The translations under genes and the position numbers were made by a program. Below, piece by piece: positions 4,479 to 26,551 of a stretch of DNA of 64,000 nucleotides (its first letter is position 1; every line of letters begins with the position of its first letter). The notes under the pieces are model-generated. The model saw only the letters and a program-made list of their open reading frames with translations, searched no databases and had not been told where the DNA came from. This stretch comes from Planctomycetaceae bacterium (GTDB lineage Bacteria; Planctomycetota; PLA2), in NCBI GenBank assembly GCA_011525755.1, contig WYBS01000091.1, positions 6,922-70,921 on the forward strand. Reading direction: 5' to 3'.

Positions 4479-4589
4479 GGGTCGCGTAGGTTACCGGAGG
4501 GCGCCCGCTGTCGCGTCGTTTGACCCGCCCCTGGGCCGGGCGCCGTGTGCCCGGGCGGGTCCTCTCGGCGCGTGGCGGGCCTCGCGCCC

Positions 4590-4665
4590 GCGCGTGTGCG
4601 AACATCTGGCGCTCCGGGGCGGGGGCCGGGCGGGAGCGGCCGTGTGCGAACATCTGGCACCCGGT
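4590..4665. repeat. two direct copies of the 18-bp motif TGTGCGAACATCTGGCGC (second copy 16/18), about 50 bp apart, in the lpxB/S41-peptidase divergent intergenic region
   Basis: Direct reading. The same motif recurs in reverse orientation at 26283-26431. Confidence 0.6.
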
Positions 4666-4859
4666 CCGCGCGCGAGCGCCGTCGCCGGACGACCGGCCGG
4701 CGACCGGGAGCCCGCGGGCACGAGCATCCGTCGCCGAGGTGGGGACGGACCAAGTCCCCGCGGCAGAGCATCCGCCGTTTCCAACCATTCGCCCTTCCCC
4801 ATACGGCAGGGGTCCGACAGGTTCCCGGCAGCCGGGCCCGGCGGTACACTGGCGAGGCG

Positions 4860-6143
4860 ATGCTCGCGGCGGTCCTCGCGCTCCTGCTTGCGCCCCCGGG
4901 CCCCCCCGAAGTCTGCAAGAGCGACCTCGCGCACGCGTACGACGCGCTCGAGAAGCAGTGCGGCCACCTGCTCGAGCAGAAGGGCGTCTCCCTCGGAAAG
5001 ATCCGGAAGGAGCTCGCGAAGGCGGCGTCCTCCGTGCGCTCCACCGAGGACCACTGGGTCGTTCTCGTGCGGCTCGTCGCGCGGCTCAAGGACGGGCACG
5101 CGGCGGTGCTCACGACGGAGAAGACGAAGGACCTGAAGTGGCCGCTGCCGGGGCTCGACAGGGGGCCCGGCCTCTCTTGGTGCGAGGGCAAGGGGAAGGT
5201 CCATGTGAAGGGGGCGTGGGGGAAGGGAGCCGGCGCGGGCATCGAGGTCGGGATGGAGGTCGTGAAGGTCGAGGGGCTGCCTGCGGCGAAGTGGCTGGAG
5301 GGGCGTGTGGAGGAGATCTCGGACCTCGTCTCGTTCTCCACGCCGCAGCAGGCGCGCTACTTCGCCTGCCACTGGGGGCTCGGGGGCGCCGAGGGCTCGA
5401 CGCTCCAGCTCGAGCTCCGCCATCCGGTGACGAAGGACACGAAGAAGGCGACGCTCACGCGCGGCGACGGCGGGCTCGCGCCCGCGGGGCCGGTGTTCCC
5501 GCCGACGGGGCTCCAGGCGATCGGGCGGAACTCGTACGGGAAGCTCCCGTCGGGCCTCGGCTACATCCACCTGCGCGACGTCCCGCAGACGCTGCCCGAG
5601 GATCTGGACAGGATGCTCGAGGCGCTCGCGGATCCGCCGGGGCTCGTGCTCGACTGCCGCGCGAACGGCGGCGGAGGGTGCGACCACGATGCGGTGTTCG
5701 GGCGGTTCGTGCCCGCGGGCGCGACGCTCAAGTTCGAGAAGGAGTACGGGAGCGCGGGGCCGCGGCCGTACAAGGGGCCCGTGGTCGTGATCGTGGACGC
5801 AGGGGTCCGGAGCGCGGGCGAGACCGTTTCGGGGATGCTCAAGGAGGACGGCCGCGCGTACATGATCGGGCCGGAGCCCACAGCCGGCATGTCGTCCCAG
5901 AAGACGACGATCGACCTCCCGAGCGGACTCTTCCAGCTCTACGTGTCGGTCGGTTCGAACAAGGGCCGCTTCAACAAGGGCAAGGGGATCGAGGGGATCG
6001 GCGTGCCGCCGCACGAGATCGTGCCGTACGACCCCCAGGACCTCGCGAAGGGCGTCGACACGGAGATCAGGCGCGCGGAGGAGCTGCTTCAGAAGGGCTT
6101 CCCGAAGAACGCGGTGCCGTACCACCCGGAGCGGTACAAGTAG
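4860..6143 (+). CDS. S41 family (C-terminal processing/tail-specific-like) peptidase, secreted
   Basis: Signal peptide 'MLAAVLALLLAPPGPP'. The S41 catalytic region has 'PVVVIVDAGVRSAGE'. The ORF extends upstream to 4545, but the ATG at 4860 gives the signal peptide. Confidence 0.75.
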   Translation: MLAAVLALLLAPPGPPEVCKSDLAHAYDALEKQCGHLLEQKGVSLGKIRKELAKAASSVRSTEDHWVVLVRLVARLKDGHAAVLTTEKTKDLKWPLPGLDRGPGLSWCEGKGKVHVKGAWGKGAGAGIEVGMEVVKVEGLPAAKWLEGRVEEISDLVSFSTPQQARYFACHWGLGGAEGSTLQLELRHPVTKDTKKATLTRGDGGLAPAGPVFPPTGLQAIGRNSYGKLPSGLGYIHLRDVPQTLPEDLDRMLEALADPPGLVLDCRANGGGGCDHDAVFGRFVPAGATLKFEKEYGSAGPRPYKGPVVVIVDAGVRSAGETVSGMLKEDGRAYMIGPEPTAGMSSQKTTIDLPSGLFQLYVSVGSNKGRFNKGKGIEGIGVPPHEIVPYDPQDLAKGVDTEIRRAEELLQKGFPKNAVPYHPERYK

Positions 6144-23699: not shown

Positions 23700-24533
23700 A
23701 TGCCCGCGTTCGAGCAGATCCGGCGCGACCTGGACGAATCCCCTTCCGACGTCGTCCAGTGGGAGGCCGCATGCCTGAAGGACATGGCGAGCCTCCTCGA
23801 TAGCCTCGAGCGGGCGCGGTCCGAATGGCAGTCGCTCTCGGCGCAGCTCGCGGAGGCGCGGTCGCTCGCTGCGGAGGCGCGCCGCACGCGCGAGGAGCTC
23901 GGGCTCGCGCGCGAGGAGGTCACGGCCCTCCGTCGCGAGGCGGACACGCTGCGCGACGAGGCCGGGCGTGTCGTTTTCGCCGAGGCGGCGGCGGCGGCGG
24001 CGCTCGAGCGCGTGGCGGAGCTCGAGCGGCGGCTCGGCGAGGCGCGAGCGAACACGGACACGGCCGAGGCGGAGCTCGTCCGCATGGCGGAGCGGCTCGC
24101 GACGGTCCAGCGGGAGCGCGACGTGCTCGCCGAGAACGAGCAGACGTGCGCGCAGCTCAAGGCCGAGGCGGCGGAGCTGCGCACCCGCCTGAAGCGCGCG
24201 GAGGGGGCGAGGAAGGAGCTCGACGAGGAGCGCGACCGCGCGGCGTCGATCGAGCGCGAGCTCGAGCGCGTGCGACGCGACGCGGGGCAGGCGAAGAAGG
24301 AGGCCGAGGCGCAGATGATCCTCGCCTGCGACCTGCGCGTGCAGCTGAACCGGCTCGAGAAGGAGCGCGACGAGGCGGCGGAGCGGGGGAAGAGGAAGCT
24401 CCGGGCGACGCTCGAGAAGGTGCACGCGGCGCTCGACGAGACCGGCGCCCCGCGCGGCGACGACCTGTCGTTCAGCGAGCGGATCCGCTGGGTCGCGGGC
24501 CGGCTCGCCGAGCGCGGCGGCGCGGCGGGCTGA
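23700..24533 (+). CDS. hypothetical coiled-coil protein
   Basis: 277 aa, heptad-rich ('LAEARSLAAEARRTREELGLAREEVTALRREADTLRDE...'). Start has an upstream purine-rich stretch. Chosen over the 912-aa antisense ORF. Confidence 0.55.
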   Translation: MPAFEQIRRDLDESPSDVVQWEAACLKDMASLLDSLERARSEWQSLSAQLAEARSLAAEARRTREELGLAREEVTALRREADTLRDEAGRVVFAEAAAAAALERVAELERRLGEARANTDTAEAELVRMAERLATVQRERDVLAENEQTCAQLKAEAAELRTRLKRAEGARKELDEERDRAASIERELERVRRDAGQAKKEAEAQMILACDLRVQLNRLEKERDEAAERGKRKLRATLEKVHAALDETGAPRGDDLSFSERIRWVAGRLAERGGAAG

Positions 24534-24594
24534 GCCGGGCGACGGGCTGAGGCGGGAGACGGGCTGAGCCGGGCGACGGGTTGAGCCGGGCGAA
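24527..24594. repeat. 4 tandem copies of a 17-bp unit (GGGCTGAGCCGGGCGAC)
   Basis: U1 24527-24543 contains the TGA stop of the coiled-coil gene. U2 'gggctgaggcgggagac'. U3 is identical to U1. U4 'gggttgagccgggcgaa'. Confidence 0.8.
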
Positions 24595-24626: not shown

Positions 24627-26138
24627 GTGCGGCGGGTCGCCCTCGCGTGCGTCGTTGTCGTCGCCGCGCTGGTGCTCCTGCTTGCCGGCGATCATGTGGC
24701 GCGGGCGCGCGCCCGGATGCCGCGGGCGGAAGCGGGCCAGGCTGACGGTGGGCGGGCGGCCGCACGAGGCGAAGCCGGGACCGCGCGGGCAGGCCGGGAG
24801 CGCGTGTCGGCCGCGCCGCCGGTCGTCCGCCTGCGCGCCGCCGGCGTCCTGCTCCTCGACGGCGAGGCCACGACGCTCGGCGGCCTCCGGCGCGCCTGCG
24901 CGGGGAGGGACGCCGTCGACCTCCGTGTCGACGAGGGGGCGCCGTGGGCGCGGATCCAGTGGGTGCTCGCTGCGCTCGAGCGGGCCCCGGTGGCGCGCGT
25001 CCGTTTCGAGCTCGCCGACGGCGCGGCGGAGGCCTGTTTCCGGTCGGACTTCTGGAAGCAGGATGCGCGCCACCTCGTGGGCGGGCACACCGCGGCAGTC
25101 CTCGCCGTGGACGCCAGGAGGCTCGTCGACCCCGGGCTTGCGGCGGACCTCGCGGACGAGGCCTTGGCGACCGGGCGGGAGCGCGGCCTCAGGCCTCTCG
25201 GGGAGCTGCGCCCGGCCCCGTCGCAGCCCTTCGGCGACGTCGCTCCCGCGCTGCGCGCCTTCCGTGACGCGGACGTCGAGCTGGAGTTCCGCTTCCTCCT
25301 CCCAGACGATCCGGTCCCCGAGTCGATCCCGGCGCTCGCCGACGACGTCTCGGAGTGGCCGGATCTCGCCGGGTGGTGGAACCCGCCCTGCTCCTGCGCT
25401 CCCGGTTTCATCGCCGTGGACCTGCCCGTCGCGGACTTGGGGGAGGCGAACAGGGGAGAGGAGGACGATAGGGTCATCATCCAGCTCGGCCGCGACGGGA
25501 ACCTGTTCCGGTATGGGGAGGTGAGCCTCGACGCGTTGGGCGAGCAGCTCGTCGCCGCCAAGGAGCGCTACGACCTCAAGATGAAGCAGCAGGGGAGACG
25601 TGGCGTCGAGGAGCTCCCGGACGGGACGTTCGCCTCGAAGCTCTACGTCCTGATCCGGGCCGACAGCGCCGCGCCGGCGCGGCAATTGGGCTGGATCCTG
25701 CATGTGCTCGCGAGGGAGCGCCTGTACAAGGTGCAGTACGCCGTGAGGCGGGCGCCGCCGGCGGGCGAGGAGCCCTGTGTCGACCCCGGCTACGTGATCC
25801 TCCGTTCGTTCCTGCCGACGGACAACCTGCCGGATCTCGCCGGGGCGACGCCGCCCGTCGTGCGCGTCTACGTCGATCCCGGCGCCTACGGCATCGGCCC
25901 CACGGGCGGGTTGGATCTCGAGACGGTCGAGAAGCTCGCGCGCGAGGAGCACGAGCGCGCGCGGGCAGGCGACAGCGCGAGCTTCGTCGCGGCCGTCCAC
26001 ATCGCTCCCGGCGTCGAGTGGGGGCGCGTCATCGCCGCGATCAACGTGCTCGCCCGCGCCGGCTTCGGAAAGATCGACTTCCACGGTCTTCCGGCGCCGG
26101 ACGAGGCGACGCGGCGGTTGAGCCCGCTCCCGCGCTGA
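24627..26138 (+). CDS. membrane-anchored protein with three ExbD/TolR-like domains
   Basis: N-terminal TM 'VALACVVVVAALVLLLAG'. Three segments resemble ExbD cores (e.g. 'VLLLDGEATTLGGLRRACAG...VDLRVDEGAPWARIQWVLAALE', 'VIIQLGRDGNLFRYG...LYVLIRADSAAPARQLGWILHVLA', 'VRVYVDPGAYGIG...VAAVHIAPGVEWGRVIAAINVLARAGF'). Confidence 0.45.
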   Translation: MRRVALACVVVVAALVLLLAGDHVARARARMPRAEAGQADGGRAAARGEAGTARAGRERVSAAPPVVRLRAAGVLLLDGEATTLGGLRRACAGRDAVDLRVDEGAPWARIQWVLAALERAPVARVRFELADGAAEACFRSDFWKQDARHLVGGHTAAVLAVDARRLVDPGLAADLADEALATGRERGLRPLGELRPAPSQPFGDVAPALRAFRDADVELEFRFLLPDDPVPESIPALADDVSEWPDLAGWWNPPCSCAPGFIAVDLPVADLGEANRGEEDDRVIIQLGRDGNLFRYGEVSLDALGEQLVAAKERYDLKMKQQGRRGVEELPDGTFASKLYVLIRADSAAPARQLGWILHVLARERLYKVQYAVRRAPPAGEEPCVDPGYVILRSFLPTDNLPDLAGATPPVVRVYVDPGAYGIGPTGGLDLETVEKLAREEHERARAGDSASFVAAVHIAPGVEWGRVIAAINVLARAGFGKIDFHGLPAPDEATRRLSPLPR

Positions 26139-26282
26139 GGCCGTGGGGCTCCCCGGTTCCTGTCGGACCCACGCCGTACGAATGTCCTTGAATGGAAAAG
26201 GGATCGAGTCCCCGCAGGGGAATCCCTGTTCATACGGTCACGCCTCGGCGAGGGCGCGGGCGGGCAGAGCGCCGCCGGGGCG

Positions 26283-26431
26283 AGCGCCAGATGTTCGCAC
26301 ACCGCCTTCCGCCGACGCGGGGCCCCGCGCTGGCGTCCGGGCGGCAGATGTCCGTACGCGGCGCCGCGCGCAGCGCAGGGCGCCCGTGGCATCGGGCGCG
26401 ATCGCCGCCAGGCGCCAGATGTTCGCACAAG
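26283..26431. repeat. three copies (two perfect, one degenerate) of the 18-bp motif GCGCCAGATGTTCGCACA, about 60 bp apart, in a convergent intergenic region
   Basis: Reverse complement of the motif at 4590-4665. Middle copy 'ggcagatgtccgtacgc'. Confidence 0.6.
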
Positions 26432-26551
26432 GATCCGCCCACGGCGGACCAGGGAAGTGCAGGAGCGGCACGCGTTCGTGCCTACGCCCGGATCCGCCGG
26501 GGCGCCCGGACGAGTCCTGGTCCTGCGCGGACCGCGCTCGCTCCGGCAGCG

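What the first reader, a model, noticed from the sequence alone, without database searches (positions are those of the whole stretch)
4590..4665. 18-bp motif TGTGCGAACATCTGGCGC repeated five times in two unrelated intergenic regions
There are two direct copies about 50 bp apart in the lpxB/S41-peptidase divergent region. Three more copies (two perfect, opposite orientation) lie about 60 bp apart at 26283-26431 in a convergent intergenic region. Perfect 18-mers recurring 22 kb apart in non-coding DNA are unlikely by chance. The regular spacing suggests a multi-site regulator operator or a short dispersed REP-like element. Its presence in a convergent (terminator-side) region argues against a simple promoter operator.
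Basis: seen in the sequence. Interest (0 to 1): 0.55.

Follow-up and report, generated by a model that had tools for sequence, protein, structure and literature searches.

The report
Miniature relics of an HNH gene
The repeated 18-mer is a 21-bp piece of a selfish HNH-endonuclease gene that survives, in one to four copies, inside small non-coding derivatives of that gene scattered between host genes; it is probably a site the endonuclease itself recognises.

Summary
There are four copies with at most one mismatch plus one degenerate copy, against 0.08 expected by chance. The operator and REP readings do not hold.

Each 18-mer cluster lies in a 300-400 bp composite element. The element also carries a second shared module (CCATTC-N11-TACGGC-NN-GGGTCCGACAGG) in fixed orientation.

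Related Planctomycetota genomes hold a roughly 550-aa HNH endonuclease gene with distant DUF222 relatives. Its coding strand contains the reverse complement of the motif (GAG CGS MAG ATG TTC GCA CWN, peptide ERQMFAH). Its 5' flank and start codon match module 2. A profile built only from the 5' flanks of four such genes ranks the four module-2 sites first.

Array copies vary only at the codon positions that vary among the genes. The motif's GCA is the only codon column that ends in A or T in all seven genes. Core copies are either perfect or decayed.

Region A is absent from the same locus in two relatives and decayed in a third.

Best reading: these are non-autonomous, MITE-like mini-derivatives of a selfish HNH gene, and they keep a cis-acting site. 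Binding or cutting by the HNH protein is inferred, not shown. No full-length gene was found in the window.

The parts
4507..4821 (-). Mini-element A. This is a non-coding derivative of an HNH endonuclease gene, and the gene-sense strand is the minus strand. It replaces the sequence that relatives carry between lpxB and the S41 peptidase gene.
   Evidence: Homology to the relative L164 stops at 4506 and resumes at 4873. The 5' terminus CCTGTCGGACCC lies at 4821-4810.
4595..4612 (+). 18-mer copy 1 (exact). On the minus strand it reads GAG CGC CAG ATG TTC GCA CAC, which translates as ERQMFAH.
4643..4660 (+). 18-mer copy 2 (1 mismatch). On the minus strand it reads GGG TGC CAG ATG TTC GCA CAC.
4779..4827 (-). 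Module 2 of region A. It is homologous to the 5' flank plus start codon of the HNH gene (CCTGTCGGACCC..CCGTATG..GAATGGTTGGAA). The relic ATG is at 4788-4786.
   Evidence: It is the top hit (E 0.015) of an nhmmer profile built only from the 5' flanks of four full-length HNH genes. Further similarity extends to about +90 of the gene by eye.
4556..4568 (-). Block X (CCGAGAGGACCCG on the minus strand). It is a distal block shared exactly with the independent mini-element in L141.
26160..26440 (+). Mini-element B, with the gene-sense strand on the plus strand, inside the convergent spacer 26139-26551. The distal boundary is not defined.
26153..26196 (+). Module 2 of region B, homologous to the HNH gene 5' flank plus start codon. 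The relic ATG is at 26192-26194.
   Evidence: It is the fourth-ranked hit (E 0.66) of the 5'-flank profile, after region A, L007 and L141. It is about 90% conserved in the ortholog L007.
26284..26301 (-). 18-mer copy (exact). About 60 nt of further homology to the HNH gene follows it on the plus strand (26281-26349).
26341..26358 (-). Degenerate copy (14 of 18 bases). The corresponding copy in the ortholog L007 has a perfect core.
26412..26429 (-). 18-mer copy (exact).
26199..26227 (-). Hairpin followed by TTTT on the minus strand, resembling an intrinsic terminator. The T-run corresponds to the GGGAAAC near the 5' end of the gene, so it may be inherited and not a functional terminator.
4845..4850 (+). 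TACACT, a -10-like hexamer 9 nt upstream of the S41 ATG. Relatives have TAGACT at the same place. This is the host promoter remnant next to the terminus of the mini-element.
   Evidence: read from the sequences

Best explanation
Regions A and B are two copies of a 300-400 bp non-coding, non-autonomous mini-element derived from a selfish HNH endonuclease gene. The gene encodes about 550 aa: two helical modules followed by an HNH nuclease domain. Only distant members carry Pfam DUF222, and a ParB-HTH likeness of the helical modules rests on weak hits only. The gene is found in variable contexts in related Planctomycetota.

Shown: each mini-element keeps the gene's 5' end (about 42 nt of flank, the start codon and roughly 90 nt beyond it). 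It also keeps one to four tandem, diverged units that each contain a 21-bp internal segment of the gene. In some copies outside the window a piece of the gene's 3' end is also kept.

Shown: the 13-nt core is under nucleotide-level constraint both in the genes and in the non-coding arrays. The elements come and go at orthologous loci.

Inferred: the core is a cis-acting site that the HNH protein binds or nicks. That activity would keep the site intact in the mini-elements, drive its tandem multiplication, and allow the mini-elements to be maintained or mobilised in trans.
For: 1. The motif is a 21-23 nt exact match to the sense strand of two paralogous HNH genes in MAG.302 (L003, L022), while its expected chance frequency in one genome is about 1e-4.

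2. The peptide RQRVWLER(Q/K/R)MFA(H/L/V)P is conserved in the closer members of the family, about 40 of the first 100 of the 120 homologs recovered.

3. The 20 core-conserved array copies, from seven loci, vary only at CGC/CGG, CAG/AAG and CAC/CTC/CTT/CTG (one CAA). Apart from that CAA, these are the codon positions, and mostly the variants, seen in seven full-length genes.

4. A profile of the 5' flanks of four full-length genes gives its four best hits, in about 115 kb searched on both strands, exactly at module 2 of region A, L007, L141 and region B, all in the correct orientation.

5. The gene's 3'-end block GGGAGGTGCC follows the motif in mini-elements L004 (18 of 18 bases, E 1.5e-5) and L141.

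6. Among about 560 codon columns of seven genes, the only one where every gene uses an A/T-ending codon is the GCA inside the motif. GCA accounts for 7% of Ala codons.

7. In nine array regions the core mismatch spectrum is 18, 2, 1, 1 copies for 0, 1, 2, 3 mismatches, then background levels. Flanks beyond about +8 are 37% identical, against 97% for the core.

8. Spacers within L141, and between region A and L141, are detectably homologous (z up to 5.5). The arrays are therefore diverged tandem duplications and the mini-elements share ancestry.

9. Insertion polymorphism at the lpxB/S41 locus: L165 has a 34-nt spacer, L164 and a JGI contig have an 880-aa gene, and L197 has a shorter, decayed mini-element.

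10. The protein carries an HNH domain (PHROGs E 1e-5 to 1e-7; Foldseek matches to McrA and IscB HNH at probability 0.99). Its helical modules show only a weak ParB likeness (Foldseek probability 0.84, E 1.6).
Against: No full-length HNH gene lies in the 64-kb window, and whether the source genome has one is unknown. Binding or cleavage of the site by the protein is untested.

Copies do decay: the L197 copy and the middle copy of region B. Constraint is therefore not universal.

Copies were collected by similarity to the core, which inflates the 97% core identity. The bimodal mismatch spectrum only partly answers this.

No clear terminal inverted repeats or target-site duplications were found. 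A 3'-end piece was not identified in the window copies.

The individual E-values for module 2 are modest (0.015 to 0.66). The argument rests on rank, orientation and collinearity together.

The full-length gene holds only one copy of the site, so its multiplication in the mini-elements has no demonstrated mechanism.
Confidence: 0.6

Rival explanations
1. The elements are inert pseudogene debris. HNH genes inserted, were almost wholly deleted, and the leftovers have no function. The core looks conserved only because the surviving copies are young, or because they are patched by gene conversion from intact genes.
For: Copies do decay: L197 has 3-4 GC-ward substitutions in the core, and the middle copy of region B has 2. 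The array codon variants mirror the gene variants, which conversion or repeated sampling from genes would also produce.
Against: The mismatch spectrum is bimodal, 18 perfect copies against 4 intermediate, while the spacers of the same tandem units have diverged almost to background. The A-ending GCA codon is fixed in all seven genes, so the nucleotide sequence matters in the gene itself. Conversion tracts of only about 21 nt without flanking homology would be unusual (general knowledge). Region A and L141 share the same module order, block X and spacer similarity, which points to spread of a mini-element and not to independent decay.
Confidence: 0.2
2. The arrays act through RNA or as a decoy against the HNH gene. 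Transcripts reading the 18-mer strand would be antisense to both the start region and the conserved internal segment of HNH mRNAs. Alternatively, the DNA arrays titrate the nuclease. Either way the arrays would act as a host-side trap for a selfish gene.
For: On the 18-mer strand both module 2 and every repeat are perfectly antisense to the gene. In region B this strand lies downstream of, and co-oriented with, the HEAT-repeat gene and ends in a hairpin plus TTTT. Array variants match several gene variants.
Against: There are no expression data. No promoter was identified. The arrays have no consistent orientation relative to host genes across seven loci. The T-run is inherited from the gene's GGGAAAC. 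The RNA fold is only marginally better than shuffles (z -2.3), and there is no Rfam family.
Confidence: 0.08
3. The arrays are operators for a host transcription factor that controls the neighbouring genes.
For: The short conserved sites are clustered in intergenic DNA. In region A they lie 200-260 nt upstream of the S41 peptidase gene.
Against: The same upstream region in orthologs lacks the sites altogether. Region B lies between two gene ends. The sites are fragments of a coding sequence accompanied by other fragments of the same gene. The neighbouring genes at the seven loci share no function.
Confidence: 0.05
4. The arrays are a REP/REPIN-type or CRISPR-like repeat array.
For: Short, nearly identical repeats are separated by variable spacers in intergenic DNA.
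Against: There is no stable hairpin at or around the units. All copies within an array are direct. Spacing is irregular at 48-148 nt, and the spacers are diverged duplicates of one another and not unique inserts. Of the eight ORFs nearest the two regions that were scanned, none hit a cas or RAYT-type family. No viral matches occur in clusters.
Confidence: 0.02

Closest known systems
MITEs and other internally deleted, non-autonomous derivatives of mobile elements
   Same: They are short, non-coding and present at several loci. They keep the parent's end (the 5' flank and start, plus a 3' piece in L004 and L141) and lack almost all of the coding region. They are present or absent at orthologous loci.
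   Different: The parent is a free-standing HNH endonuclease gene and not a transposase-bearing IS. No clear terminal inverted repeats or target-site duplications were found. An internal 21-bp segment of the ORF is retained and tandemly multiplied, which is not a MITE feature.
REP13E12 / DUF222-HNH repeated genes of mycobacteria (Gordon et al. 1999, as cited in PMC10589994)
   Same: The parent gene encodes an HNH nuclease preceded by a helical N-terminal region. Only distant members (P0218, P0238) reach the Pfam DUF222 threshold. The gene occurs in more than one copy and in variable contexts.
   Different: The close members do not reach the Pfam DUF222 or HNH thresholds. The lineage is Planctomycetota. 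To my knowledge no mini-derivatives or internal cis site have been described for REP13E12.
Neisseria dRS3/NTS repeat clusters and the Ssn nuclease (PMC11893778)
   Same: A conserved site of about 20-28 nt is repeated in clusters in intergenic DNA and separated by variable segments. In Neisseria a genome-encoded site-specific nuclease recognises the repeat, and the repeats mark variable loci.
   Different: dRS3/NTS is a palindromic hairpin cut in single-stranded DNA by a GIY-YIG enzyme. Here the site is non-palindromic and sits inside the candidate nuclease's own ORF, and the nuclease link is only inferred.
Multiple subterminal transposase-binding repeats (for example Tn7 TnsB sites or Mu end sites; from general knowledge)
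   Same: There are several direct copies of a roughly 20-bp protein-binding site within a few hundred bp of an element end.
   Different: The full-length gene shows only one copy, about 900 nt from its 5' end. No transposase is involved.

Membership tests
REP/REPIN (RAYT-mobilised palindromic repeats) | The unit is an imperfect palindrome that forms a stable hairpin. | tested here: not met
   Ten units were folded as DNA. The z-scores ranged from -1.8 to +1.2 and no common hairpin appeared.
REP/REPIN (RAYT-mobilised palindromic repeats) | The repeats occur as inverted pairs and are linked to a RAYT gene. | tested here: not met
   All copies within an array are direct. Of the eight ORFs nearest the two regions that were scanned against Pfam, none hit a RAYT-type family; the rest of the window and the whole genome were not scanned.
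CRISPR array | Repeats of 23-50 nt occur at a regular period, with unique spacers and an adjacent leader or cas genes. | tested here: not met
   The conserved unit is about 21 nt. Spacing is 48-148 nt. Some spacers resemble one another. No cas family was hit among the eight ORFs nearest the two regions.
MITE-like non-autonomous derivative | It shares its termini with an autonomous parent and has lost the interior. | tested here: met
   The 5' end matches. A 3'-end block is present in L004 and L141. Apart from the motif region, the interior of the gene gives no hits better than scattered, background-level matches (E of 0.014 or worse). A 3' block was not found in the window copies.
MITE-like non-autonomous derivative | It has terminal inverted repeats and a target-site duplication. 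| tested here: inconclusive
   An inverted GTTGTCGGAC follows the stop codon only in L192 and L195. Both flanks of region A carry TAG(G/A)(T/C)T-like words, but so does the element-free relative L164.
MITE-like non-autonomous derivative | It shows presence/absence polymorphism at orthologous loci. | tested here: met
   At the lpxB/S41 locus the element is intact in the window, decayed in L197 and absent in L164 and L165.
Transcription-factor operator of the adjacent genes | The sites are conserved at the same position upstream of orthologous genes. | tested here: not met
DUF222-HNH (REP13E12-type) gene family, for the parent gene | It has an HNH nuclease domain. | tested here: met
   PHROGs HNH families match at E 1e-5 to 1e-7. 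Foldseek gives local matches to McrA and IscB HNH at probability 0.99. The Pfam HNH match is below threshold for close members and above it for P0206 and P0209.
DUF222-HNH (REP13E12-type) gene family, for the parent gene | It has a Pfam DUF222 (PF02720) N-terminal region. | tested here: inconclusive
   Close members have no hit. The distant homologs P0218 and P0238 hit at E 3e-8. P0218 aligns with the L003 protein over 484 residues at E 4e-37.
Known structured RNA (Rfam) or tRNA-like element | It matches a covariance model or a tRNA scan. | tested here: not met

The most novel reading that the evidence does not exclude
This is a previously undescribed kind of selfish element. A nuclease with helical, possibly DNA-binding N-terminal modules and an HNH domain has its own recognition site embedded in, and co-evolving with, its coding sequence. 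It spawns non-coding mini-elements that carry tandem arrays of that site. Those arrays would work as landing pads, binding platforms or decoys for the nuclease, or as antisense traps against it. They would also remodel host loci: in region A an 880-aa gene present in the closest relatives is gone, and the relic promoter now faces lpxB.
Probability: 0.25. Interest if true: 0.75.

Novelty: new variant of a known kind. Interest (0 to 1): 0.58.

Why it matters
HNH genes of the DUF222 type (the REP13E12 type in mycobacteria) are common, repeated and assumed to be mobile, but how they move or persist is unknown.

This finding supplies a concrete, testable cis element. It is a 13-21 bp site that is nucleotide-constrained inside the gene and preserved, often in multiple copies, in non-coding derivatives. 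It also supplies natural 'minimal' versions of the element.

The finding shows that a short 'regulatory-looking' intergenic motif in a high-GC genome can be a fossil of coding sequence. It documents locus turnover (gene loss and replacement of promoter context upstream of lpxB) tied to such an element. The arrays also tend to sit at contig ends, so they probably break metagenome assemblies.

Tried and rejected
- **Replication-terminator (Ter-like) sites with opposed polarity.** The cumulative GC skew shows no turning point between the two regions, and the composite structure argues against it.
- **tRNA-like or att remnants.** ARAGORN found nothing.
- **Rfam families.** None reached gathering thresholds, and relaxed thresholds gave only noise.
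- **Sigma-54, ECF or sigma-70 promoter reading of module 2 or of the 18-mer.** No consensus fitted by eye, and the promoter scan found nothing.
- **Small ORFs or repeated peptides.** The copies in region A and two copies in region B are in frame with the relic ATG. Across all arrays, however, only 5 of 12 spacings are multiples of 3, which is about chance, and the codon-position GC profile is non-coding.
- **Phage association.** Scans of viral contigs with the 17-mer gave only single matches consistent with chance. Scans with module 2 hit collagen-like coding repeats.
- **Literature search for the sequence.** It returned only unrelated primers.
- **Region A as a decayed remnant of the HEAT/SQHop gene seen in L164.** No residual similarity was found.
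- **Finding the parent gene in the source genome.** It is not in the window.
- **Metagenome scan.** It was capped at 120 rows that were mostly chance hits, so no genome-wide count was possible.

Full report
**Observation.** The 18-mer TGTGCGAACATCTGGCGC is present at 4595 (+, exact), 4643 (+, 1 mismatch), 26284 (-, exact) and 26412 (-, exact). With up to three mismatches the window holds four matches against 0.08 expected. A fifth, degenerate copy (14 of 18 bases) lies between the two copies of region B. The window is 72% G+C. Codon-position GC profiles and Pfam confirm the contexts. Region A is the divergent lpxB / S41 peptidase spacer. Region B is a 413-nt spacer between the convergent ends of an ExbD-like gene and a HEAT-repeat gene.

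**A larger composite.** Aligning region A (+) with region B (-) revealed a second shared module downstream of the 18-mers in the same orientation. It reads CCATTC-N11-TACGGC-NN-GGGTCCGACAGG and lies at 4802-4821 (+) and 26159-26178 (-). No Rfam family and no tRNA-like gene covers either region.

**Relatives.**
- A scan of species-representative genomes with the 18-mer gave mostly single matches consistent with chance. The exceptions were five contigs of one Planctomycetota MAG (MAG.302, JAKLKT01) and one contig of another (DASUGR01).
- A capped metagenome scan added two more high-GC arrays, L141 and L049.
- The arrays hold 1-4 direct copies at spacings of 48-148 nt.
- The 13-nt core GTGCGAACATCTG is exact in 18 of 20 copies scored. 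About 8 further bases are partly conserved. The rest is at background identity, 0.37 against 0.97 for the core.
- L007 is the ortholog of region B, with three copies and module 2. The stretch from the second copy through module 2 is about 90% conserved and the distal part is not alignable.
- L141 is an independent locus with four copies followed by module 2.
- Scans of viral contigs gave nothing relevant.

**The link to a gene.** Two of the MAG.302 hits lie inside paralogous ORFs of about 550 aa (81% identical) in different genomic contexts. NCBI annotates them as HNH endonuclease. Their sense strand carries CGAGCGCCAGATGTTCGCACACC, which is the reverse complement of the motif with its flanks and encodes LERQMFAH.

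The family has 120 detectable homologs. Every member that carries a source taxon label is from a Planctomycetota MAG, apart from three distant ones labelled Anaeromyxobacteraceae or Lentisphaerae. The segment RQRVWLER(Q/K/R)MFA(H/L/V)PPLREAL is conserved in its closer members.

The protein has an HNH domain (PHROGs E 1e-5 to 1e-7; Foldseek local matches to McrA and IscB HNH at probability 0.99). It is preceded by two helical modules. In distant members these reach Pfam DUF222, and they show a weak ParB-like match. The AlphaFold model has a mean pLDDT of 89.5. No relative was found among PDB sequences and the protein matches no PADLOC defence family.

**Is the resemblance homology?** Four independent lines say yes.
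- The array copies, read on the gene-sense strand and frame, vary only at CGC/CGG, CAG/AAG and CAC/CTC/CTT/CTG (one CAA). Apart from that CAA, these are the positions, and mostly the variants, that differ among seven full-length genes. The Lys (AAG) variant occurs in an array of the MAG whose HNH gene also has AAG (L006 and L194). All eight array copies of MAG.302, whose genes have CAG, have CAG.
- The 5' flanks of four full-length genes share CCTGTCGG..CCGTAYG-N8-9-GAATGGATGGAA with the reverse complement of module 2. A profile HMM built from those four gene flanks alone, searched against the window and eight other loci, ranks module 2 of region A (E 0.015), L007, L141 and region B first to fourth, all in the right orientation. 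By eye, similarity continues to about +90 of the ORF (GGGGCCTTGGATCTCGCGTTCGGCGAGGGG in the gene against GGGGACTTGGTCCGTCCCCACCTCGGCGACGG in region A).
- A block from the 3' end of the ORF (GGCGAGGAGGGAGGTGCC) follows the motif in L004 (18 of 18 bases, E 1.5e-5). A shorter version follows the motifs in L141, in collinear order.
- A profile of the whole gene finds the motif region as its best hits in every array. In three arrays homology extends to 43-69 nt, including 26281-26349 in region B. blastx gives a matching weak protein-level alignment.

The composite elements are therefore internally deleted derivatives of this gene.

**Constraint on the core.** In the seven genes the GC3 level is very high: 7.5% of codons end in A or T. 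Among about 560 aligned codon columns exactly one has an A/T-ending codon in every gene. It is the GCA of ATG TTC GCA, inside the motif, and GCA accounts for 7% of Ala codons. This indicates selection on the nucleotide sequence itself within the gene.

In nine array regions the core shows 18 perfect copies, 2 with one mismatch (both the Lys variant), 1 with two and 1 with three mismatches. Counts then equal the shuffle expectation.

Spacers within L141 and L038, and between region A and L141, retain detectable similarity (z up to 5.5). The arrays are therefore old tandem duplications of a 50-64-nt unit in which only the core stayed intact. Region A and L141 also share an exact 13-nt distal block.

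Two caveats apply. Copies were collected by similarity to the core. Real decay is also seen, in the middle copy of region B and in the L197 copy.

**Turnover at the locus.** In the closest S41 ortholog available (L197, 84% aa identity), the lpxB/S41 spacer is 240 nt. It holds module 2 and a single copy with GC-ward substitutions, GCGCCAACGTCTG. In L164 (80%) and in a JGI contig (82%), an 880-aa HEAT/SQHop-like gene lies there, co-oriented with lpxB. In L165 (73%) the two genes are 34 nt apart. Window positions 4507-4872 have no similarity to L164. The element is thus lineage-specific. In the window genome its gene-sense strand, with the relic promoter and ATG, now points at lpxB.

**Mechanism.** What is shown is the origin, the architecture, the nucleotide-level constraint and the gain, loss and decay of the element. 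What is inferred is that the core is a site bound or nicked by the HNH protein. That would explain why it is fixed inside the ORF, why it alone survives in non-coding copies, and why it multiplies.

I could not test binding. I could not find a full-length gene in the window. I could not survey the source genome, because the collection scans and contig look-ups were exhausted and one extension failed.

**Alternatives considered.** These were inert debris, an antisense or decoy trap, a host operator, a REP- or CRISPR-like array, Ter sites and a structured RNA. Each is weighed in the report sections.

**Comparison with known systems.** The elements work like MITE-type deletion derivatives, but their parent is a free-standing HNH gene. 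In the arrangement of their arrays they resemble the Neisseria dRS3/NTS clusters that a genome-encoded nuclease recognises (PMC11893778). The parent gene is related to the DUF222-HNH (REP13E12) repeated genes (PMC10589994). They do not meet the defining features of REP, CRISPR or Rfam families. I rate the finding as a new variant of a known kind, of moderate interest.

Noticed in passing
window 24522-24593: A tandem repeat of a 17-nt unit (GCGACGGGCTGAGCCGG; 4.2 copies, 89% matches) lies just upstream of the ExbD-like gene that starts at 24627. The period is not a multiple of 3, so it is probably non-coding.
   Followed up: no
L164 7332-9974, compared with window 4507-4872: An 880-aa HEAT_2/SQHop_cyclase_C gene lies between lpxB and the S41 peptidase gene in two close relatives. 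It is missing from the window genome, where the mini-element takes its place. lpxB has therefore lost its co-oriented upstream neighbour.
   Followed up: partly
window 4845-4850; L164 about 9986; L165 about 474; L197 about 523: A conserved TA(G/C)ACT hexamer lies 9-17 nt upstream of the S41 ATG in all four genomes. The HNH genes have TAYNNT 8-9 nt before their ATG. This suggests very short or absent mRNA leaders in this lineage.
   Followed up: no
L192 5656-5665 and L195 1578-1587: An inverted copy of the element's 5' terminus (GTTGTCGGAC) lies 3-7 nt after the HNH stop codon in two loci. It may be a terminal inverted repeat, but it is absent from L003, L022 and L194.
   Followed up: partly
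L004, L038, L049, L163 (contig ends): The arrays sit within 150 nt or less of contig ends in several assemblies. This suggests that the repeat breaks short-read metagenome assemblies and is more abundant than the scans show.
   Followed up: no
L058 (8 copies) and L144 (3 copies), low-GC metagenome contigs: The same 17-mer recurs with a period of about 147 nt in unrelated contigs of 47-52% GC. This is probably a repeat unrelated to the element described here.
   Followed up: no
L003 protein residues 48-121 and 274-333: The HNH protein contains two internal copies of the same helical module (DYARERLG... and EYCIERLG...). The motif-encoding segment lies in the second copy.
   Followed up: partly
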